Positions 749 through 30,553 of a DNA stretch of 64,000 bases are shown here, in pieces. The stretch's first letter is position 1. Each line of letters begins with the position of its first letter. Source of the stretch: a virus; the IMG/VR virus record IMGVR_UViG_3300049445_000358; one strand, given 5' to 3'. The position numbers and the translations under genes are program-made. Under the pieces are notes generated by a model. It made no database searches. It had not been told where the DNA came from and saw nothing but the letters and a program-made list of their open reading frames with translations.

Positions 749-835
749 AACCCTCGGGACACGACCTCCGTTCCCCCTTCCCCCGCCCTGTGCCGGAGGC
801 CCCGCTATAGCACGGGCTACCTCACTTCAAAAGAA

Positions 836-911
836 CTAGGGCAATTAACCTGTCCATCTTCAAAGCTCCAAAAAATAACTCTTGATGTCCAATATGGACT
901 TATGTTATAAT
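836..911 (+). promoter_or_regulatory. Sigma70-type promoter P1 with an inverted 19-bp box upstream
   Basis: TTGATG(882-887)-18 nt-TATAAT(906-911), extended -10 TG, A-rich UP element; reverse complement of 836-854 is GACAGGTTAATTGCCCTAG. Confidence 0.8.
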
Positions 912-955
912 TAAAATAAAACAATTTGCCCAAAACCCTTAGAGGAGTAACAACC

Positions 956-1291
956 GTGGCTGTAGAACTCAATTGGGTTGCAATCCAGCGCCAGCGATAC
1001 CTGGTGGGGTTGGACGATAAAGGCGACGTCCGTGCGCTCGCTTACAACAAGGGCGATCTGCACGGGAAGAACGGCATCGACGATCCTACCGGCCAACGCT
1101 GGTACGGATTCACACTGCTGAAGGCACGTGAGCTCAAGGTGGAAGGTGACTCCCTGGACGTGAAGGATCTCATGAACGTCCACACCAGCTACGGAGAGGT
1201 GCCCGACTTTACCAGCATCCGCACCCTCATCGAGGAAGACCGGAAGGACGACGAAGCCCTCCCGGTCGTCAACCCCTTCAAGCGAGGCTGA
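956..1291 (+). CDS. Early hypothetical protein
   Basis: GTG start after AGAGGAG RBS; first gene after P1. Confidence 0.75.
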   Translation: MAVELNWVAIQRQRYLVGLDDKGDVRALAYNKGDLHGKNGIDDPTGQRWYGFTLLKARELKVEGDSLDVKDLMNVHTSYGEVPDFTSIRTLIEEDRKDDEALPVVNPFKRG

Positions 1292-10502: not shown

Positions 10503-10763
10503 ATGGTAATGAAGCCGGGAGCAGCTGAGGCTGCTAGGTTCACCTATGTAAGGCCGCTTGCTGAAGACTCATGTACTCACTTCCTATTTCCACACGTAGT
10601 ATTCAATAGGTCAGGGTACAAAGCGTTACTCCGATGCCGCTGCATGAAGCATAAGATCCTTGGGGAAAGGGAGTACTCGAGGCCTGAGGAGGCTCTGAAG
10701 GCTGCCGAAGTGTTATGTGACAGGTGGCTAGCAGAGAGGTCGACCAGCTATAAGCCTCCATAA
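10503..10763 (+). CDS. Hypothetical protein
   Basis: Packed ORF. Confidence 0.55.
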   Translation: MVMKPGAAEAARFTYVRPLAEDSCTHFLFPHVVFNRSGYKALLRCRCMKHKILGEREYSRPEEALKAAEVLCDRWLAERSTSYKPP

Positions 10764-10767
10764 GAAT

Positions 10768-10813
10768 GACCATATTTTTGGCCGAGATTACCTCGAGGCG
10801 AATATTTTATAAT
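10768..10813 (+). promoter_or_regulatory. Box-type promoter P2 (no canonical -35)
   Basis: GACCATATTTTTGGCCGAG box, TATAAT starting 40 nt after the box start; near-identical layout at 29235. Confidence 0.75.
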
Positions 10814-10845
10814 TGATAACAATTCAAACCTGTAGAGGCATACAG

Positions 10846-11307
10846 ATGGCGCGCACAACACAGAGGATGCCAGATCTCTCGAACGCTACAGCTGGCGGCA
10901 TCGTCGATATGTGTGCGCCGGACCAGGCTGAGTACAATCGGCTTGACAAGTTGACCAAATACTACAAAGCGGGACTGAAAGCCCGTCTCACTGAGGACAT
11001 GAGGATCGACGTGTACACCCACATAGTCCGAGGTGAGAACTTCACAGCAGTCATCTCGGAGAAGACCCGTACCGGGTTCTCCGTAGCAAGGGCTGTAGAG
11101 CTGGGGTACCTGACACAGGAGCAGATTGAAGAATGCATGGTTACCGGCGAACCATATCAGGAGTGCCGCTTTGCTCCGAACGAGAAGACGGACCAGCAGC
11201 TCAAGCAGGAGGTTGCCTATAATGCACCTTCAACCCGCCAGCAGAACTCTGACACCCTCACTGCAGCCCTGAAAGAATCATTGAAGTCCGAAGGAGTCAC
11301 GGAATGA
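10846..11307 (+). CDS. Hypothetical protein
   Basis: AGAGG RBS; first gene after P2. Confidence 0.7.
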   Translation: MARTTQRMPDLSNATAGGIVDMCAPDQAEYNRLDKLTKYYKAGLKARLTEDMRIDVYTHIVRGENFTAVISEKTRTGFSVARAVELGYLTQEQIEECMVTGEPYQECRFAPNEKTDQQLKQEVAYNAPSTRQQNSDTLTAALKESLKSEGVTE

Positions 11308-17355: not shown

Positions 17356-17423
17356 GACCATAATTTTACCCTAGAGGAACCGCAAAATAACTCTTGCGTG
17401 CCCCTTAGGATCTATTGTATAAT
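17356..17423 (+). promoter_or_regulatory. Promoter P3 with upstream box
   Basis: Box GACCATAATTTTACCCTAG (17356-74); AAAATAACTCTTG shared with P1; TTGCGT-18-TATAAT. Confidence 0.8.
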
Positions 17424-17483
17424 CTATTTGTAAGTTGGAGCTTACAAGCTTCAATGGGTACTAGATCAAGGAGAGGACAAGTT

Positions 17484-18029
17484 ATGGCACAAGGACAACA
17501 GGATCGCCCGCAGGAAGCCATTCGCGAACCGGGTGCAGGGGCGTCGACCACGACCACATCGCCGGCGGCTTTGGCGACGGGATCGATGGCGAATACGGGA
17601 ACGGTTGCCCCGACGACTGCGGCTCCGACCGACGGCAAGCCGGCGCCGACCGAAGAGCAGCTGCGTGCGGCTCGCGAGGTCGTTGCTCGGGCGAAGCAGG
17701 CGGGCGTCAAGCTGACGGCGTCGGGTGGGGGTCAGGCCCGCATCATGCTGCCGAACGGCGAATCGCGCGCTGCCTACATCAAGCGCCGGTGGGCCGAGAA
17801 GGCGGAACGCGCCACGATCGTGAAGGAGATCCAGAGCGCCGGCCCGCCGCACGACAAGTGCACCTACCAGATCGTCTTCGCCGCGACCAAGGGCCTCCCC
17901 GGCGGTCCCGACAAGGACAAGCCGACGGGCGATGACGGCAAGACCTATTCGCTGCAGCCGCCGAAGCCTGGCGCGTCGCCGGCAGCCTCGCAGACGAACC
18001 AGGGTGCATCGGCAGCCGCCGCGGAGTAA
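17484..18029 (+). CDS. Probably abundant DNA-binding or nucleoid protein with low-complexity A/T/P tails
   Basis: AAGGAG RBS, GC3-rich codons, core SRAAYIKRRW...TYQIVFAAT. Confidence 0.65.
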   Translation: MAQGQQDRPQEAIREPGAGASTTTTSPAALATGSMANTGTVAPTTAAPTDGKPAPTEEQLRAAREVVARAKQAGVKLTASGGGQARIMLPNGESRAAYIKRRWAEKAERATIVKEIQSAGPPHDKCTYQIVFAATKGLPGGPDKDKPTGDDGKTYSLQPPKPGASPAASQTNQGASAAAAE

Positions 18030-21132: not shown

Positions 21133-21645
21133 ATGGCAACCGGTAAGGCAGTAGACCGCTACAAGGACAAGCGTACGCTTGATTGGCGTAGGCGCACTAC
21201 GTATACGATCTGGTACCACATTGTACGCAGGTGCTACGAGCCTATGCATGACTCGTACTGGGAGTATGGAGGAAGAGGGATATGTGTACATGAAGAATGG
21301 CTCTATTCTCCATACTCTCAACAGCCGAGGACAAAGGCTGAGGCTTTCCGAAACTTCGTGCGAGACGCAGGTCTTCGCCCAGGACAACACGTCTCATTCG
21401 ATCGCATTGAGGTCAACGGCCATTATGAGCCGGACAATACCCGTTGGGCAAACGGTCACGTTCAGGCCAGAAACAAGCGGAACAGTCTATACATTGACGA
21501 CCCAGATAATCCCGGCACCAAAATTCCGGTTGCCGACCTAGCCGACCGTATGAAAATCCCATATCAGAAGCTCAGGTACATGCTGAAGTCCCAAGGACGC
21601 TGGCCAGGAGATGTCAACGATGGAGAGGTGGATCAAGGTGAGTGA
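21133..21645 (+). CDS. Free-standing HNH-type homing endonuclease
   Basis: RRCY...YGGRGICV...W...DRIEVNGHYEPDNTRWA...QARNKR. Confidence 0.8.
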   Translation: MATGKAVDRYKDKRTLDWRRRTTYTIWYHIVRRCYEPMHDSYWEYGGRGICVHEEWLYSPYSQQPRTKAEAFRNFVRDAGLRPGQHVSFDRIEVNGHYEPDNTRWANGHVQARNKRNSLYIDDPDNPGTKIPVADLADRMKIPYQKLRYMLKSQGRWPGDVNDGEVDQGE

Positions 21646-21847: not shown

Positions 21848-22171
21848 ATGGCACAGTCAGTTGACCTGAGTGAGAAGAGGTATTGGTACAAAGAGACAGT
21901 CGTCAAGTTCGGCAAGTTCAAGGGTGAGGATTACACCTGTGGACAGATCATGGCACTGGAGCCCTCATACCTGATCTGGTGCGACGAGAACATCGAATGG
22001 TTTAACCTCGACGAGGACTTCCGGATGGAAGTCGAAGAAGCCGTCGAGCGTGAACGGGAACACAAAAGGTCAGAGCGTCGAGGCAGTCGAGGTCGTCGGG
22101 CTCCGACTATCGTCGACCTGACTACCGGTCGCGAGTCCAACGGCATAGACGACGACGAGATCCCCTTCTGA
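21848..22171 (+). CDS. FGKxKG-domain protein (ExoX C-terminal/DUF3820-like) with an SSB-like acidic tail
   Basis: KFGKFKG...PSYLIWC; ends DDDEIPF; AAGGAGG RBS. Confidence 0.7.
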   Translation: MAQSVDLSEKRYWYKETVVKFGKFKGEDYTCGQIMALEPSYLIWCDENIEWFNLDEDFRMEVEEAVEREREHKRSERRGSRGRRAPTIVDLTTGRESNGIDDDEIPF

Positions 22172-22185
22172 GCAGCAGGACTAAC

Positions 22186-22284
22186 ATGATGTGTTGGGCA
22201 ATCGGTATACTGTTTATAATAGCTGTACTCGTCGCAGCATTTGCCTTCCCCGATAAAGGAGGAGACTACAGTTCTCGCAGATAG
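22186..22284 (+). CDS. Small membrane peptide (32 aa, not in the ORF track)
   Basis: MMCWAIGILFIIAVLVAAFAFPDKGGDYSSRR; AGGA RBS. Confidence 0.5.
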   Translation: MMCWAIGILFIIAVLVAAFAFPDKGGDYSSRR

Positions 22285-22321
22285 TCCATAGTCCTCAAGG
22301 GAGAAGAGCCGGGTTCAGCCC

Positions 22322-22397
22322 GGCTATATTTTTGCCCTATCTCCTAAAAGGCCCCAAAAAATACCTGTTGAGGTCCCATAGGAACTTATTATATAAT
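22322..22397 (+). promoter_or_regulatory. Promoter P4 with upstream box
   Basis: Box GGCTATATTTTTGCCCTAT; TTGAGG(22368)-18-TATAAT(22392). Confidence 0.8.
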
Positions 22398-22453
22398 ATA
22401 CTCAAGAATCTTAATTTACCACTACGACATCAACCAAGAGAGGAGCGAGTAGC

Positions 22454-22897
22454 ATGCGCGTATTTCGGCAGGGCGATGTCCTGATTCGGGAAGTCCCGAA
22501 GGATCATATCCCAATGATGCTAAGCGGGACGCAGACGGTCAAGCGCGACCAGCGCACTGGCAAGGTGACGTTGGCGTACGGGGAGGTCACCGGCCACCAC
22601 CACACCTTCTCGGATAAGTCGAAGGTCAACATGTTCGCGAAGGCCGGCGAGGCCGAGATGTTCGAAGGCCCCTCAGGCGGCAATAGCGGAGCTCGCGAGC
22701 TGGCTAAGCTCCGTCACGGGGTCGAAAGCGATCCCCTGATGGATCCGACCCTCCGCCGCTTCATCGACGTCCAGTCGGAAGTGGCCTTACTGGAGCACCA
22801 GGAGCACACCACGATCGAGGTGCCCAGGGGTTTCTACGAGGTTGTGATCCAGCGGGAATACGCTGGTCGTCAGGAAATCAGGCGCGTGGCGGATTAG
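22454..22897 (+). CDS. His-rich partner of the DUF6745 protein
   Basis: RQGDVL, LAYGEVTGHHH, LEHQEH, GFYEVVIQREY, C-terminal RRVAD. Confidence 0.8.
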   Translation: MRVFRQGDVLIREVPKDHIPMMLSGTQTVKRDQRTGKVTLAYGEVTGHHHTFSDKSKVNMFAKAGEAEMFEGPSGGNSGARELAKLRHGVESDPLMDPTLRRFIDVQSEVALLEHQEHTTIEVPRGFYEVVIQREYAGRQEIRRVAD

Positions 22898-23011
22898 CTG
22901 TCGCTCGCACGAACGAACGGCAGCTACGCCTGATTTGGCGGGAGGGGCCTTACCGATGTCACTGCGATCTGAGGGTTGCGCAGCTAGCGTGTCACGCTGG
23001 GACTTGTAGGC

Positions 23012-24445
23012 ATGGACTCCTCCCGTCACCTCGAGGATTTTGTAGCATCTCTCAGTAAAGGAGAGATTGTCCTCTCATACCTGAACCTTGCTGGGATCGA
23101 ACGAAAGGCGATCGCACACATGAACGAAGTTGTCGACTACTTCTTCAATACACAGCCTGCAGACCGTGCGACAGCGGAGAGGGCTATCCTCACTTTCCAC
23201 CACCATGCTAACGTCCATGGAAACCAAAATGAGTGGCTGGACCAGAAACCACAGTTCATCTGGTGTCAGTCTCCCCAAGCGATGGTCGTCATCTCCAAGG
23301 TCCTCAGCGACATCCATGAAGGCACTCGGCCAGTAAAGCCCTCAGGGATGCGTCCAGGCCCGGGCGCCAAGATCCACGCACCTGCGCGACTTCAGAACTC
23401 GGTCCGGGGAGACACTCCTGTCGAGTATCTAATCGGACAGGCCACAGATGTCTTTGACTCCCGAGGACTGGACATCAGCTTAAGGGCTATGGGGACAGTC
23501 TCAGGACACTGGTCCTCGACCGTGGAGAACGAGACGCTAGACAGCCTGTTTCGCGGAACCAGAAGAGGAGGCTCGGTCCTACGAGGAACTTGGCCATGGA
23601 GCCTGGAGAACATTGCAAGCCAAATCAGGTTCTCGATTAAGACCAACCCGGATACTACCTTGTACTCTGAGCAGGGGGGTAACGGGAAAGACGGGGAGTT
23701 AGTTGAACGCAGCCTAGCAGCTACCGAACCACATCTGTCACAGATCAAGCTTGACCCCAAGTTCTACGGGCGGAGGCTCAAGCTGAGGCATGCATGGTTA
23801 GGACAACATGCAGTAGACGATCACTCCTATACAGATCTTGCATGGGCGCTACGTAGGTCATGTAACTGGGTCATGGACTATGGCTCATTCGTGTTCTGCT
23901 GCGAGCGTCCTGCAGAGATTCACTACCAAGACCTCGGCACAGGAACTACAAGGTATCGGCTCCACAATGAGAATGGGCCTGCAGTTAGGTTCCACGACGG
24001 CTGGCAGATGCATGTGCTTAGTGGAGTCGGTGTACCAGACTTCGTTGTCGAGAAACCCCACTTGATCACTACATTCAAGATCAACCGAGAAGGGAACCAG
24101 GAAGTCCGGCGGATCATGATCGACCGCTTCAAGTTCGGCGAGCAGCCCTCAGGGATCGCCGCTTACGTGATCGCCTGTGGAGCAAAGCGCATCAGCCATG
24201 ACGAACGCTGGGGAACCCTCTGGAGGTTCAGGAACGCACAGCTTGCGAGATCGATGGGCGAGATCGAGGACGAGACATACGTCATGCTCGAGGTCGTTAA
24301 TCGCTCTCCAGAACCCGATGGGTCGTTCAAACGCTACTACTTGCGGGTTCCGCCTAACATGCGCACGGCACATCAAGCGGCAGCCTGGACATTCGGGTTC
24401 ACCGGTGCAGAGCTCGACCTCTACTACCCCTTACAGGAGTCGTAA
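23012..24445 (+). CDS. DUF6745 domain protein
   Basis: CERP...LHNENGPAVRFHDGW...NQEVRRIMI...VNRSPEPDGSFKRYYLRVPP...AAAWTFG...P-x-x-ES. Confidence 0.8.
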   Translation: MDSSRHLEDFVASLSKGEIVLSYLNLAGIERKAIAHMNEVVDYFFNTQPADRATAERAILTFHHHANVHGNQNEWLDQKPQFIWCQSPQAMVVISKVLSDIHEGTRPVKPSGMRPGPGAKIHAPARLQNSVRGDTPVEYLIGQATDVFDSRGLDISLRAMGTVSGHWSSTVENETLDSLFRGTRRGGSVLRGTWPWSLENIASQIRFSIKTNPDTTLYSEQGGNGKDGELVERSLAATEPHLSQIKLDPKFYGRRLKLRHAWLGQHAVDDHSYTDLAWALRRSCNWVMDYGSFVFCCERPAEIHYQDLGTGTTRYRLHNENGPAVRFHDGWQMHVLSGVGVPDFVVEKPHLITTFKINREGNQEVRRIMIDRFKFGEQPSGIAAYVIACGAKRISHDERWGTLWRFRNAQLARSMGEIEDETYVMLEVVNRSPEPDGSFKRYYLRVPPNMRTAHQAAAWTFGFTGAELDLYYPLQES

Positions 24446-24448
24446 CAG

Positions 24449-25363
24449 ATGTCCTTCAGGCAACCAATGCTTGCAGTAGATACGTCTCTAATGTATCTGG
24501 AGAGCCTCTTCGTAACCACCAACGATGCCTTCTACATGTCAACTAAGTTTGACGGAATTAGGGGGTCCGTAGTTGACGGAGTTCTAGTCTCCAGAACCCT
24601 GAAGTTTATCCCTAACTACTACATCCGGTCGATCCTAAGTCGGCCAGAATTCGAAGGCTTAGATGGCGAGTTGGTGGTAGGGGCACCTTGTGGCGAAGGA
24701 GTTATGTCCCGATCGAGCTCGGGAGTGATGTCAAGAGAAGGCAGACCCGACTTCAAGTTTTACGTATTTGACAAGCATGATCTTGACGGAGTCTTCATGG
24801 ACCGTCACGAGTACCTACAGACCAGACCTTGGATGGGACATCCCGGGGCGGAGTTCATCGAGTTAGTAGATCAGCATCTGGTGACCTCAATCGATCAGGT
24901 GGCGGAACTGGAAGAACGGTTTGTAACCGAGGGGTATGAAGGGGCGATTCTCAAGTGGGTAGCATCTCCTTACAAGCAGGGAAGGTCGACCCTGAGAGAA
25001 CGTTACATGATGAAGCTAAAGCGCTTCAAGGACTCTGAGGGTACAGTTACCGGCTTTGAGGAGTTGATGCACAATGACAACGAGGCGACAATCGACGATA
25101 GAGGCTACACTAAGAGGAGTAGCCATAAGGACAATAAGCGACCTGGCAACACTCTTGGAAAGCTCGTCATACAAGATCTCCACAGACCCGAGTGGACTCC
25201 TAAAGTTGGAACTGGCTTTGATGCCGAAACCAGGAAGGAGATCTGGGACAACCAGGAACAGTACCTCGGCAAAATCGCCAAGTATAAATACCTCCCAGTC
25301 GGAACCCTCGAGCAACCCAGACACCCAGTCTTCCTCGGCTTCCGTGACTCCTCCGACCTCTGA
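24449..25363 (+). CDS. lig: ATP-dependent DNA ligase (minimal type)
   Basis: KFDGIR, LDGEL, YVFD, EGAILK, KLKRF, OB-fold GTGF. Confidence 0.92.
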   Translation: MSFRQPMLAVDTSLMYLESLFVTTNDAFYMSTKFDGIRGSVVDGVLVSRTLKFIPNYYIRSILSRPEFEGLDGELVVGAPCGEGVMSRSSSGVMSREGRPDFKFYVFDKHDLDGVFMDRHEYLQTRPWMGHPGAEFIELVDQHLVTSIDQVAELEERFVTEGYEGAILKWVASPYKQGRSTLRERYMMKLKRFKDSEGTVTGFEELMHNDNEATIDDRGYTKRSSHKDNKRPGNTLGKLVIQDLHRPEWTPKVGTGFDAETRKEIWDNQEQYLGKIAKYKYLPVGTLEQPRHPVFLGFRDSSDL

Positions 25364-25960: not shown

Positions 25961-26108
25961 GTTCCTTGATTCGGAGCTTGACAATCCCCAGAACACTACA
26001 GACCTAGAGTTCGAGCGGACGAAACATCTAAGGCAGTACGAGATATGCAGTCGAATTCTAACCAAGACAGTCGAGAAGATCAAGCAGCTCGTTTCATCAG
26101 GGGAATGA
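25869..26108 (+). CDS. Hypothetical coiled-coil protein (TTG start assumed)
   Basis: The helical C-terminal part of ORF 25677..26108 looks coding; its TGA overlaps the Fic ATG. Confidence 0.4.
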   Translation: MRRGRRKSSDSNDYTLEELKEIKDLVLGQVEFLDSELDNPQNTTDLEFERTKHLRQYEICSRILTKTVEKIKQLVSSGE

Positions 26109-26605
26109 TGCAGTCGGAGGCCCTTGAGGACTTCATCCGTGAAAGTAATATCATAGAGGGCATTATCAAGCCGAAGGACATCCAAGAGACGGCCGCTTAC
26201 ATGTCTCTCTTAGGGCTGAAGAGAATGACGTTGCACATTCTCAACAGGTTCCAAGAGATAATCGCTCCAGACAAGCCTCTCAGACGTCTAAAGGGCATGG
26301 ACGTCTATGTCGGCAACCATATTCCTCCGCCAGGAGGATCAAACATCGTCGAGATGTACGAAGAGATCATCCTGATGGCCAACCAGGATGAAGATCCTTG
26401 GAAGGTCCATCTCCTCTTCGAGGATCTACATCCGTACATGGACGGCAACGGTCGTACTGGTCGAGCCTTGTGGATGTGGCAGATGCACAAGCAGGGCCGC
26501 GATCCGTTCCAGCGGTCATTCCTCCACCAGTTCTACTACGACACCCTCTCACGCACCAGGGCAGGAATAGCCTATGCAAAGCCAGCTGACCCCGGCCAAG
26601 GTTAA
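26105..26605 (+). CDS. Fic/Doc family protein
   Basis: Motif HPYMDGNGRTGR; ESNIIEG. Confidence 0.9.
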   Translation: MMQSEALEDFIRESNIIEGIIKPKDIQETAAYMSLLGLKRMTLHILNRFQEIIAPDKPLRRLKGMDVYVGNHIPPPGGSNIVEMYEEIILMANQDEDPWKVHLLFEDLHPYMDGNGRTGRALWMWQMHKQGRDPFQRSFLHQFYYDTLSRTRAGIAYAKPADPGQG

Positions 26606-28857: not shown

Positions 28858-29214
28858 ATGGCATTGATCTACCGCAGGCTCGCTTTGATAGCGGGGGCCC
28901 GAGCTGAGATCCAGCCCTTGGCGAGAGCCTGGGGAGTACTCATCTGGGGTCACATTGGGAGGTACAACCTGAGAGCACTGGAGTGCTACCCCCAGCTCAA
29001 AGAGGCCCGAGCGAGACGGAGAGAGGTAAACGGTGACGGTGTTGCGTTGGTAGAGTCCGTAGAGAACATTCTTTATCCCCTTTCAGCCTATACAGCAATG
29101 TACGATACTGAAGTACACAAGCCTCCGCCCCTACCTCCGACGGAGAAGGACCTCCAGCCCTTTAGCCGCGTGGAAGATGTCTACGACCTGCCTAGGTTAC
29201 GGAAACGCGGTTGA
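28858..29214 (+). CDS. Hypothetical protein
   Basis: ORF 118 aa. Confidence 0.55.
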   Translation: MALIYRRLALIAGARAEIQPLARAWGVLIWGHIGRYNLRALECYPQLKEARARRREVNGDGVALVESVENILYPLSAYTAMYDTEVHKPPPLPPTEKDLQPFSRVEDVYDLPRLRKRG

Positions 29215-29234
29215 CACAGTTTTCGACAAAGGTA

Positions 29235-29280
29235 GACCATAAAATTGACCTAGATTTCCCTAAGGCATTCGTTATATAAT
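29235..29280 (+). promoter_or_regulatory. Box-type promoter P5
   Basis: GACCATAAAATTGACCTAG box, TATAAT starting 40 nt after the box start; colinear with P2. Confidence 0.78.
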
Positions 29281-29320
29281 ATAGATCATGTGAACTTGGT
29301 GTTAAACCTGTAGGGTGGGC

Positions 29321-30553
29321 ATGAACAACGAAGAGTTCGAATTCGACACTACAGCCCGAGAGGAACTAGACCCCATCGATATCTTCGGTGAGGCAAGGAA
29401 CTCTATCGGCCTGTATATCGAATCCACGTTCTCCTCAGCCACCAAGAAACGGACCGCCTACATCAGAACCTCCGATCGGATCACCTACCGTAGGTGCCGG
29501 AGGAAGTGGAACTGGGCCGACTCCAAGCGTCGCAATCTCCAATCAAACCAGGCTGCTAGCCCTCTGTGGCTAGGCTCGGGGTTACACTACTGCTTCGAAG
29601 ATTTCCACGGCCCACGTAACCACGAGCATCCTCGTGACGCTTTGCAGGCATACTACGATGCCACTCTGAACTCCGGTCTCCAGATTCCCTCCGACGCCGA
29701 AGACCTATTGGTACTAGGCAAAGGGATGATGGACTACTACGAGGGGTGGCTCGAACACCGCGATCCTCTTACCACATTCGTTGTCGATGGAGAACCTCAG
29801 GTCGAGGTACAAATCTTCATTGAGATCCCCAAAGAGCATCTTATCCCGTATTGCCCAGATCCGAGTATCTTAGACGAATACGACCAAATCCTCTACAGTT
29901 TAACAATCGACCGTGTCATTATCGACGAATTGGGGAGGTTATGGGTCGTCGAGTACAAGTCCGCCAAGAACTTCCAGTGGATGCATCTCGAGACCGACCA
30001 ACAGGTGACATCATATACGTGGGGTACAGGTATTAAATACCCGGGCTACCAAATTGCAGGGACGATCTACCAGCAACACAAGAAACAGATCCTTCAGCCG
30101 CCTGCGTTCCTAGCCTCCACTAAGCTGTTCTCGACCTCAAAGAGACAAAAGACCTCCCGAGCGATGTATATCAATGCGCTCAGGAACCTGTACGGCAATG
30201 ACGAAAGAGTCTGGCCGGCAGAAAATAGGCTCTTCCTCCAGTTCCTCGATACACAAGAATCACATACGGCAGACCATCTCATCCGACGTGACTACGTCGA
30301 ACGGAATGAGAATCAGGTAGCTTCTGAGTACCAGAAGATCTTGATGGAGATTCCAGAGATGCTTAACCCCAACACACCCATCTACCCCAATCCAACTCGT
30401 GACTGCTCGTGGGACTGCCCCTTCCAGACGCCGTGCATCGGCATCGATTCTGGCGAGGACTACGAGCATGAGCTCGAAGTGACTACTATGCGTCGTGATG
30501 CTCCGGAAACCTTCTGGCGCAATCATCTTCTCCTGCCCCAGCTCGTCAGCTAA
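29321..30553 (+). CDS. PD-(D/E)XK (RecB/Cas4-like) exonuclease
   Basis: YRRCRRKW, IDRV...VVEYKS, Q..SY, C-terminal CSWDCPFQTPC. Confidence 0.82.
   Translation: MNNEEFEFDTTAREELDPIDIFGEARNSIGLYIESTFSSATKKRTAYIRTSDRITYRRCRRKWNWADSKRRNLQSNQAASPLWLGSGLHYCFEDFHGPRNHEHPRDALQAYYDATLNSGLQIPSDAEDLLVLGKGMMDYYEGWLEHRDPLTTFVVDGEPQVEVQIFIEIPKEHLIPYCPDPSILDEYDQILYSLTIDRVIIDELGRLWVVEYKSAKNFQWMHLETDQQVTSYTWGTGIKYPGYQIAGTIYQQHKKQILQPPAFLASTKLFSTSKRQKTSRAMYINALRNLYGNDERVWPAENRLFLQFLDTQESHTADHLIRRDYVERNENQVASEYQKILMEIPEMLNPNTPIYPNPTRDCSWDCPFQTPCIGIDSGEDYEHELEVTTMRRDAPETFWRNHLLLPQLVS

What the first reader, a model, noticed from the sequence alone, without database searches (positions are those of the whole stretch)
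22322..24445. Promoter-driven two-gene DUF6745 module of unknown function with a structured spacer
Seen: dedicated promoter P4, then a codon-optimised His-rich protein (GHHH, HQEH; likely metal-binding cupin-like), then a 114-nt multi-hairpin spacer (AGCTGTCG/CGGCAGCT, CGCC/GGCG, GCGATC/GGTTGC, AGCGT/ACGCT), then the DUF6745 protein. From recall, this pair recurs in bacteria and phages with conserved C-termini (R-V-x-D; P-x-x-E-S/T) and no assigned function. Inference: a two-component enzyme or effector system with stoichiometry set by the RNA spacer, possibly anti-defence or protein-modifying.
Basis: partly seen in the sequence, partly recalled or inferred. Interest (0 to 1): 0.65.

Follow-up and report, generated by a model that had tools for sequence, protein, structure and literature searches.

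The report
Conserved phage gene pair: small His-protein plus DUF6745
An uncultured 80-kb soil phage carries a tightly linked, very widespread but unstudied pair of genes, a tiny histidine-rich protein and a DUF6745 protein, here separated by an RNA leader predicted to hide the second gene's start codon; the pairing is real, but its job is still unknown.

Summary
A terminator-like hairpin and a sigma-70-type promoter (one of five similar AT-rich islands) precede a 147-aa His-rich ORF, a 114-nt spacer and a 477-aa DUF6745 ORF (Pfam E 5e-38).

The recalled gene pairing is strongly confirmed.
- 71 of 80 IMG/VR loci found with the small protein have DUF6745 directly beside it on the same strand.
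- 43 of 65 uncut bacterial loci keep the pair.
- Microcystis phage Ma-LMM01 (gp175/gp174) and a Mycobacterium abscessus prophage (genes 37/38) have it.

The small partner belongs to a large unnamed family (8,524 clusters, no Pfam model). It has near-invariant RQGDV, GExTGHxH, HxEH and QxEY motifs and a C-terminal Asp in 256 of 257 members.

Neither protein matches a solved fold, so "cupin-like" is not supported.

The spacer is lineage-specific. In 173 pairs the median gap is 2 nt. With the first codons of DUF6745 included, the spacer folds significantly (z -3.1). A 14-bp helix buries the start codon. The one sister phage with a spacer has the same architecture (z -5.4).

Function is unproven. 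My best guess is a two-subunit host-interaction or counter-defence complex.

This scan has noted DUF6745 many times on other DNA. This copy lacks the family's usual tetrapeptide-repeat tract.

The parts
22307..22335 (+). Intrinsic-terminator-like hairpin (8-bp stem, 6 G-C pairs) plus T-run. It closes the upstream transcription unit.
   Evidence: sequence
22323..22469 (+). AT-rich island holding promoter-like P4. A-tract at about 22354-22360, -35 TTGAGG at 22368-22373, -10 TATAAT at 22392-22397.
   Evidence: It is one of five such islands, and three of them share the same layout.
22440..22445 (+). Strong Shine-Dalgarno GAGGAG, 8 nt before the small gene's ATG.
   Evidence: read directly
22454..22897 (+). 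Small partner gene, 147 aa. Family phrog_27831, no Pfam model. Predicted all-beta fold. Invariant R5 Q6 G7 D8 V9, G43 E44 T46 G47 H48 H50, H115 E117 H118, Q133 E135 and C-terminal V145/D147. Residues about 60-100 are a lineage-specific, low-confidence insertion.
22895..22926 (+). Hairpin H1, which begins at the small gene's stop codon (9 + 3 bp). No U-run follows, so it is not a classical terminator. A hairpin with a different stem sequence and the same loop core lies at the same place in L248.
22936..23028 (+). Three-way-junction leader. The closing helix P1 pairs 22936-22949 with 23014-23028 (14 bp, one bulge). Inner hairpin P2 spans 22964-22979 and inner hairpin P3 spans 22984-23000. The AUG at 23012 and codons 2-6 of DUF6745 are paired in the minimum-free-energy fold.
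   Evidence: z -3.14; and (all 37 consensus pairs kept in both sequences, 4 with changes on both sides; L248, z -5.44)
22955..23008 (+). Possible 17-codon leader ORF. It would use GGGAGGGG as Shine-Dalgarno and ends at UAG, 3 nt before the DUF6745 AUG. It is speculative, because the peptide is not conserved: L248 reads the conserved bases in another frame.
   Evidence: read
23012..24445 (+). DUF6745 gene, 477 aa. Conserved N-domain at residues about 25-110 (motifs TxPADR and FIWCxSPQ). Non-repetitive, low-confidence middle at residues 119-190. PF20530 C-domain at residues 261-467. The protein ends Y-x-P-x-x-E-S.
24449..25363 (+). ATP-dependent DNA ligase gene, starting 4 nt after the DUF6745 stop. 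It is probably in the same transcript. The order small gene - DUF6745 - ligase is kept in L248.

Best explanation
The region is the head of a host-sigma-70-type operon of an 80-kb uncultured soil phage. The operon opens with a conserved two-gene cassette.

Gene 1 encodes a small all-beta protein of a very large unnamed phage family. Four invariant histidines, several invariant acidic residues and an invariant C-terminal aspartate make it most likely a metal-binding and probably catalytic subunit.

Gene 2 encodes a DUF6745 protein. It has conserved N- and C-terminal domains joined by a middle segment that differs between lineages. In about two thirds of phage copies the middle is a tetrapeptide-repeat tract. 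A protein-atlas cluster of cyanobacterial proteins carries leucine-rich-repeat domains together with DUF6745. In this phage the middle is a roughly 70-residue non-repetitive linker.

The two proteins most likely act together as one complex. DUF6745 would be the scaffold or targeting part and the small protein would supply the chemistry. The role would be accessory and in phage-host conflict (counter-defence or host takeover), not core replication.

In most relatives the genes overlap and are presumably translationally coupled. In this lineage a 114-nt leader replaces the overlap. Its closing helix pairs with the DUF6745 start codon and codons 2-6, so DUF6745 should be made at a lower or gated level than its partner.

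Shown: the anatomy, family membership, gene linkage, motif invariance, and the predicted leader fold shared with one sister phage. Inferred: complex formation, metal binding, catalysis, the host-conflict role and translational repression.
For: Linkage.
- In 80 IMG/VR loci found through DUF6745, every locus with enough upstream DNA except one has the small gene adjacent on the same strand.
- In 80 loci found through the small gene, DUF6745 is directly downstream in 65 and directly upstream in 6.
- In bacterial genome contigs 43 loci are adjacent.
- The median gap is 2 nt over 173 pairs.
- The pair is present in Ma-LMM01 as gp175/gp174 and in prophiGD102-1 as genes 37/38.

Enzyme-like conservation. 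21 columns are invariant in a 40-sequence alignment at about 45% identity. The motifs occur in 252-256 of 257 members. The family holds 8,524 clusters at 50% identity.

Variable middle and targeting idea. 77 of 113 short-partner pairs have a tetrad tract. A protein-atlas structure hit is a cluster of cyanobacterial proteins that carry LRR and DUF6745 domains. In T4-like loci without an adjacent DUF6745 the small gene sits beside arrays of tetrapeptide-repeat mini-genes.

Accessory status. The neighbours vary: Gam, ERF, RecT, HNH, methylases, HTH proteins.

Leader. The spacer is as conserved at the DNA level as the flanking coding sequence (63-69% against 54-62%) and contains an 18-nt identical block.
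Against: - There is no experimental or structural link to any function. Foldseek and VIA-align found no convincing match for either model (best Z 3.4 and 4.6). Sequence searches of the PDB were empty.
- PADLOC and NCBIfam gave no hits, and no paper mentions DUF6745.
- I could not inspect model coordinates, so clustering of the histidines into one site was not verified.
- No fused small-DUF6745 protein was found.
- In this lineage both proteins are essentially invariant across about 60 public assemblies. There is no sign of an arms race here.
- Partner-less DUF6745 genes are common in Obscuribacterales/Melainabacteria and cyanobacterial chromosomes (22 loci). DUF6745 can therefore work without the small protein.
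- The module always sits among DNA replication and recombination genes.
- The leader covariation rests on two sequences only.
Confidence: 0.45

Rival explanations
1. The pair is a DNA-metabolism accessory of the replication/recombination module, for example a repair, modification or nucleotide-processing enzyme with a regulatory subunit. It is not a host-conflict factor.
For: In the window the pair lies between an HNH endonuclease and the DNA ligase, in an operon that also holds an SNF2 helicase. The synteny with ligase is kept in L248. In Ma-LMM01 it lies between a DNA polymerase and a uracil-DNA glycosylase. Neighbours in 113 flanking ORFs include Gam, ERF, RecT, DnaB, RusA, HNH and methylases. 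In prophiGD102-1 it follows RepA and ERF.
Against: No third gene is a consistent neighbour. Neither model shows a nucleic-acid-binding or nucleotide-binding fold. A hypervariable repeat or LRR middle segment is atypical for DNA enzymes. Early or middle regions of phages also hold most anti-defence genes, so location does not discriminate.
Confidence: 0.2
2. The pair is a prophage-type defence, superinfection-exclusion or toxin-antitoxin-like cassette. The small upstream gene would neutralise or regulate the larger downstream one.
For: The layout is that of a small upstream gene overlapping a larger downstream gene. The pair is frequent in bacterial chromosomes and prophages. It has a variable middle segment.
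Against: The small protein is the more conserved of the two and looks enzyme-like, unlike a typical antitoxin. DUF6745 occurs alone, even as three tandem copies, in Melainabacteria, so it is unlikely to be a toxin needing an antidote. There are no PADLOC hits. The pair is present in apparently lytic phages within replication operons.
Confidence: 0.1
3. This rival concerns the spacer only. The 114-nt spacer acts through a short leader ORF (termination-reinitiation coupling), or it is an RNase processing or stabilising site, or it is a neutral insertion remnant. It is not a start-codon-masking structure.
For: A 17-codon ORF with a GGGAGG Shine-Dalgarno ends 3 nt before the AUG. L248 has an 18-codon ORF that ends 2 nt before its AUG. 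The spacer alone is not unusually stable. Most family members need no spacer.
Against: The leader peptide is read in different frames across the conserved 18-nt block, so the constraint is on the nucleic acid. The closing helix is kept with G-U/A-U and compensatory changes, and both leaders fold far better than shuffles. The leader ORF's own Shine-Dalgarno lies inside helix P1.
Confidence: 0.15
4. The small protein is a minimal cupin-type metalloenzyme.
For: An HxH motif lies on one beta strand and further His and Glu residues lie on a neighbouring hairpin. One JGI annotation of a homologue reads 'cupin superfamily' (P0125).
Against: None of 40 members hits a Pfam cupin family even at E 10. 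The best cupin structure match is Z 2.2 at rank 37. The order of the motifs does not follow the two-motif cupin signature. The weak structural neighbours are NAD-kinase C-terminal beta sandwiches.
Confidence: 0.1

Closest known systems
DUF6745 (Pfam PF20530; weak hit to phrog_31813)
   Same: The C-terminal 200 residues match well above the gathering cut-off. The protein has the same N-terminal TxPADR...WCxSP motif and the same Y-x-P-x-x-E-T/S end as the family.
   Different: The family has no known function. This copy lacks the tetrapeptide-repeat middle found in about two thirds of phage copies, and no detached repeat mini-genes exist anywhere in the 80-kb genome.
Microcystis phage Ma-LMM01 gp175 + gp174 (and MaMV relatives); Mycobacterium abscessus prophage prophiGD102-1 genes 37 + 38
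   Same: The two families occur in the same order on the same strand, inside replication or early regions. gp175 is 32% identical to the small protein. gp174 is DUF6745 (E 1.3e-14). Gene 37 is phrog_27831.
   Different: Those pairs are separated by 23 nt (Ma-LMM01) or overlap by 8 nt (prophiGD102-1). Their small proteins lack the insertion of about 40 residues. All are annotated 'hypothetical protein'.
Mycobacteriophage Tweety gp54 (tetrapeptide-repeat, mutationally tunable counter-defence against Phrann gp29/gp30; PMC2884959, PMC9262239)
   Same: At the family level the architecture is alike: unique N and C domains flank a variable tetrapeptide tract. The location is similar too, in the early right-arm region near WhiB genes.
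   Different: It is not homologous. Tweety gp54 gives no PF20530 hit, and the hhalign probability is 0.1%. Tweety gp53 is not a phrog_27831 protein. The window's DUF6745 has no repeats. This is an analogy only.
Start-site-masking mRNA leaders and long-distance interactions, such as the MS2 coat-replicase interaction and RNA thermometers (from general knowledge)
   Same: A helix sequesters the start codon and the first codons of the downstream cistron.
   Different: The masking strand lies in an untranslated spacer, so translation of the upstream gene would not obviously open it. No Rfam family matches. Only two examples are known.

Membership tests
DUF6745 (PF20530) | Profile match above the curated gathering score | tested here: met
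   130.9 bits against a cut-off of 27, E 5.1e-38, residues 261-467. The whole-genome search gave 132.9 bits.
DUF6745 (PF20530) | Family-typical termini: N-terminal TxPADR / WCxSP motif and a C-terminal Y-x-P-x-x-E-T/S end | tested here: met
   Alignments A2 and A3. 74 of 90 homologues end in ET or ES, and the window's protein ends in QES.
DUF6745 (PF20530) | Internal tetrapeptide-repeat tract. This is typical of the family but is not part of the Pfam definition. | tested here: not met
   The window protein's tetrad score is 0.14-0.15, against 0.5 or more in 77 of 113 short-partner pairs. No repeat mini-genes exist in the genome.
Small partner family (phrog_27831; no Pfam model) | Profile match plus the motifs RQGDV, GExTGHxH, HxEH, QxE[YFW] and a C-terminal Asp | tested here: met
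   phrog_27831 E 8e-16. All motifs are present. They occur in 252-256 of 257 members.
Small partner + DUF6745 gene pair | Adjacent genes on the same strand | tested here: met
   In the window the small gene lies 114 nt upstream of DUF6745 on the + strand.
Cupin superfamily | Double-stranded beta-helix fold with the two-motif signature (GX5HXHX3-4EX6G, then GX5PXGX2HX3N) | tested here: inconclusive
   None of 40 members has a Pfam cupin hit. The best cupin structure is Z 2.2. The motif order differs, but the model is of moderate confidence (pLDDT 78).
Tweety gp54-type repeat counter-defence proteins | Sequence homology to gp54 or Che8 gp57 | tested here: not met
   There is no shared Pfam family, and the hhalign probability is 0.1%.
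Known anti-phage defence systems (PADLOC-DB) | Match to any defence-protein model | tested here: not met
   Neither protein matches any family at E up to 1.
Start-codon-masking translational leader | The start codon and early codons are base-paired in a fold more stable than chance, and this is kept in relatives | tested here: met
   z -3.14 and -5.44. All 37 consensus pairs are kept, 4 of them with changes on both sides, in 2 sequences. The functional effect cannot be tested here.
Rfam RNA families | Covariance-model match | tested here: not met
   No match at E up to 1 in 22150-23150.

The most novel reading that the evidence does not exclude
The small His-protein and DUF6745 form a previously unrecognised and very widespread two-subunit phage system. 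A minimal metalloenzyme of a new fold would be aimed at host proteins, probably immune proteins, by a scaffold with an exchangeable recognition segment (tetrapeptide tract, detached mini-proteins or LRR). The window would hold a fixed-specificity variant whose scaffold subunit is throttled by a new start-codon-masking RNA leader.
Probability: 0.25. Interest if true: 0.8.

Novelty: new variant of a known kind. Interest (0 to 1): 0.5.

Why it matters
The small partner family has about 8,500 clusters at 50% identity and no Pfam model. DUF6745 has hundreds of phage and bacterial copies. Together they form one of the more common conserved gene pairs in environmental phages with no assigned function, no solved fold and no literature.

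The near-absolute invariance of a His/Glu/Asp set and of the very last residue points to chemistry that could be found with simple experiments. Cultured carriers exist to do them in: Ma-LMM01 and a Mycobacterium abscessus prophage.

The window adds two useful contrasts to the family. One is a repeat-less scaffold. The other is an RNA leader that replaces translational coupling. If the pair is a targeting-plus-enzyme counter-defence device, it would be a new class of phage anti-immunity factor. If not, it is still a large unannotated family that deserves a name.

Tried and rejected
The contigs of the closest homologues (P0002/P0092 and others) could therefore not be fetched. Their pairing is suggested only by equal contig lengths.
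- Nucleotide search of the phage collection found no match.
- tblastn of the window's DUF6745 against cultured phages found none. A more typical family member found only two records.
- Foldseek against the PDB and VIA-align wide searches gave nothing convincing for either model. BFVD returned only other DUF6745 proteins.
- PDB sequence-profile searches were empty.
- Pfam at E 10 on 40 small-family members showed no consistent family.
- NCBIfam and PADLOC gave nothing.
- A search for fused long forms of the small protein found one 267-aa protein and no DUF6745 fusion.
- Homology to Tweety gp54 was rejected.
- Rfam gave no match for the leader.
- Exact-motif scans of IMG/VR for the leader's conserved blocks found no further copies.
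- No second copy of the promoter or leader sequence exists in the window.
- No tetrad-repeat mini-genes or extra DUF6745 copies exist in the whole 80-kb genome.
- The hint that long-insert small partners go with repeat-less DUF6745 rests on only 5 non-independent pairs. I do not rely on it.
- A multimer prediction of the pair could not be run.
Full report
**What is there.** The window is part of an IMG/VR virus record of 80,218 bp rated complete. Earlier notes of this scan describe it as an uncultured soil phage with preQ0/DpdA genes (not re-tested).

At 22307-22325 a G+C-rich hairpin followed by a T-run looks like an intrinsic terminator. Next comes a 147-bp AT-rich island in a genome of 55% G+C. 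It contains TTGAGG-18-TATAAT at 22368-22397, a 10-of-12 match. Only five such islands exist in the window. Those at 824, 17405 and 22323 share an A-tract, TTGnnG and TnTATAAT. So 'P4' is a credible member of the phage's set of host-type promoters, although this is a consensus match only.

A strong GAGGAG Shine-Dalgarno precedes a 147-aa ORF (22454-22897) with GHHH and HQEH motifs. A 114-nt spacer follows, and then a 477-aa ORF (23012-24445) that matches Pfam DUF6745 at E 5e-38. The small gene has the highest GC3 of 15 ORFs sampled, 0.79 against 0.56-0.73.

The ATP-dependent DNA ligase gene starts 4 nt after DUF6745. No plus-strand terminator-like site follows until the next AT-rich island at about 29.2 kb. 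The cassette therefore heads a longer unit that also encodes a Fic-domain protein, a CxxCxxCC protein and an SNF2 helicase.

**Is the pair real?** Yes, and strongly so.
- The small protein's only hits among cultured phages are Microcystis phages. In Ma-LMM01 its homologue gp175 (32% identity) is followed by gp174, which is itself DUF6745 at E 1.3e-14.
- An alignment-based scan of IMG/VR with DUF6745 confirmed 236 relatives. Of the 80 loci kept, every one with enough flanking DNA except one (L072) has the small gene directly adjacent on the same strand. In five it lies downstream rather than upstream.
- The reciprocal scan with the small protein confirmed 374 relatives. Among the 80 kept, DUF6745 is directly downstream in 65, directly upstream in 6 and nearby in 3. 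One locus is cut by a contig end, and five lack DUF6745 within 3.5 kb.
- At least three of those five (L097, L105, L144) carry tetrapeptide-repeat mini-genes next to the small gene instead. This agrees with earlier notes of this scan on detached DUF6745 repeat libraries.
- In bacterial genome contigs 43 loci keep the pair and 14 are cut by a contig end. The other 22 have DUF6745 alone, nearly all in Obscuribacterales/Melainabacteria and cyanobacteria.
- A Mycobacterium abscessus prophage also has the pair, genes 37/38.

**The two proteins.** The small family is large: 8,524 clusters at 50% identity with E up to 1e-3. It has no Pfam model. Conservation is striking for a protein with a median length of 109 residues.
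- RQGDV occurs in 255 of 257 members.
- GExTGHxH occurs in 254.
- HxEH occurs in 256.
- QxE[YFW] occurs in 252.
- An Asp is the very last residue in 256.

The AlphaFold model (pLDDT 78) is all-beta. The window's lineage has an extra low-confidence insertion of about 40 residues. No solved structure matches. The best Z is 3.4, a cupin reaches only Z 2.2, and the weak recurring neighbours are NAD-kinase C-terminal sandwiches. I read the invariant His, Glu and Asp set as a metal or active site. I could not inspect coordinates to confirm that these residues cluster.

The DUF6745 model (pLDDT 79) has three parts:
- a helical N-domain with TxPADR and FIWCxSPQ motifs;
- a disordered middle at residues 119-190;
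- an alpha/beta C-domain with many near-invariant residues (LHxxxGPA, NxEVRRIM, DHDExxGTLW, EVVNxxPEPDGSFKxYxLRVPP).

It has no structural match either. In about two thirds of phage pairs the middle is a tetrapeptide-repeat tract. A protein-atlas structure hit is a cluster of cyanobacterial proteins that carry LRR and DUF6745 domains. In this phage the middle is non-repetitive, and the genome has no repeat mini-genes. Both proteins are essentially invariant across about 60 public assemblies of this phage.

**The spacer.** Across 173 small-to-DUF6745 pairs the median gap is 2 nt, and 138 pairs overlap or lie within 20 nt. The 114-nt spacer is therefore a lineage peculiarity and not part of the module's definition.

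Folded alone it is unremarkable (z -1.38). With the first 24 nt of the DUF6745 ORF added, the fold reaches z -3.14, and none of 200 shuffles does as well. The fold has these elements:
- a hairpin that starts at the small gene's stop codon (22895-22926);
- a three-way junction whose 14-bp closing helix pairs 22936-22949 with 23014-23028, so the AUG and codons 2-6 are paired;

The only relative with a comparable spacer is L248, a soil metagenome contig. Its DUF6745 is 44% identical, its spacer is 124 nt, and ligase follows as it does here. L248 folds into the same architecture with z -5.44. All 37 consensus pairs are kept in both sequences, four of them with changes on both sides. The spacer is at least as conserved as the flanking coding DNA (63-69% against 54-62%) and holds an 18-nt identical block that the two possible leader ORFs read in different frames.

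Two sequences do not make a covariation test, and no further copies were found. Several other pairs with 60-105-nt spacers also fold stably, but that control used only mononucleotide shuffles. My reading is that the leader lowers or gates DUF6745 translation relative to its partner. That is inference.

**Function.** Nothing here demonstrates a function.

The following favour a two-subunit accessory, host-directed system:
- near-obligate linkage with overlapping genes;
- an enzyme-like small subunit;
- a scaffold whose middle segment is replaced by different repeat types in different lineages;
- variable neighbours with no third partner;
- absence from most cultured phages.

Tweety gp54 is the nearest published analogue. 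It is a tetrapeptide-repeat protein and a tunable counter-defence factor (PMC2884959, PMC9262239). It is not homologous, and this copy has no repeats.

The following count against that reading, or favour the rivals:
- the constant replication/recombination neighbourhood;
- partner-less cellular DUF6745 genes;
- the lack of variation in this lineage;
- no PADLOC hits.

**Verdict.** No paper in the library mentions DUF6745. This scan has noted the family many times on other DNA. This instance is a repeat-less variant with an RNA leader in place of translational coupling.

Noticed in passing
window 26045-26605 (+): A 186-aa ORF in the same apparent operon carries a Fic/DOC domain (PF02661, 30.3 bits against a cut-off of 24) with the motif HPYMDGNGRTGR. 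It may be an AMPylating host-takeover protein.
   Followed up: partly
window 22186-22284 (+): A 32-codon ORF encodes a hydrophobic, transmembrane-like peptide (MMCWAIGILFIIAVLVAAFAF...). It lies just before the terminator-like hairpin at 22307.
   Followed up: no
window 824-989, 10745-10853, 17405-17496, 22323-22469, 29209-29326: These are five AT-rich islands in a genome of 55% G+C. Three of them share an A-tract, TTGnnG and TnTATAAT. They are probably the phage's host-RNA-polymerase promoters and would define its transcription units.
   Followed up: partly
L097:2764-3018, L105:2016-2891, L144:23-293: In T4-like viral contigs where no DUF6745 lies next to the small partner, the gene sits beside arrays of tetrapeptide-repeat mini-proteins (ATRA/DATR units). 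A 126-aa protein with two H-x-T motifs (phrog_12204) is also there; the motifs resemble those of 2H phosphoesterases.
   Followed up: partly
many IMG/VR loci, e.g. L004, L012, L086, L088, L091: A large share of viral contigs end inside the DUF6745 gene, a few hundred bases after the small gene. The repeat tract probably breaks short-read assemblies, so the family is under-counted as full-length genes.
   Followed up: no
P0013 (metagenome protein, 442 aa): This DUF6745 protein begins MYRQGDV, which is the N-terminal motif of the small partner. It may be a deletion that fuses the partner's first codons to DUF6745, or it may be a gene-calling artefact.
   Followed up: no
L226:4030-7895: An Obscuribacteraceae MAG carries three tandem DUF6745 paralogues and no small partner. 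This suggests a cellular, partner-independent branch of the family.
   Followed up: partly
window 22454-24445: The exact small protein occurs on 68 public contigs, and the exact DUF6745 protein occurs on 60 (the longest is 100,662 bp). This phage, or near-identical ones, recurs in many public assemblies.
   Followed up: partly
window 21133-21645 (+): An HNH endonuclease (phrog_3377, E 1.5e-26) lies two genes upstream of the cassette. It may be a mobile homing element.
   Followed up: no
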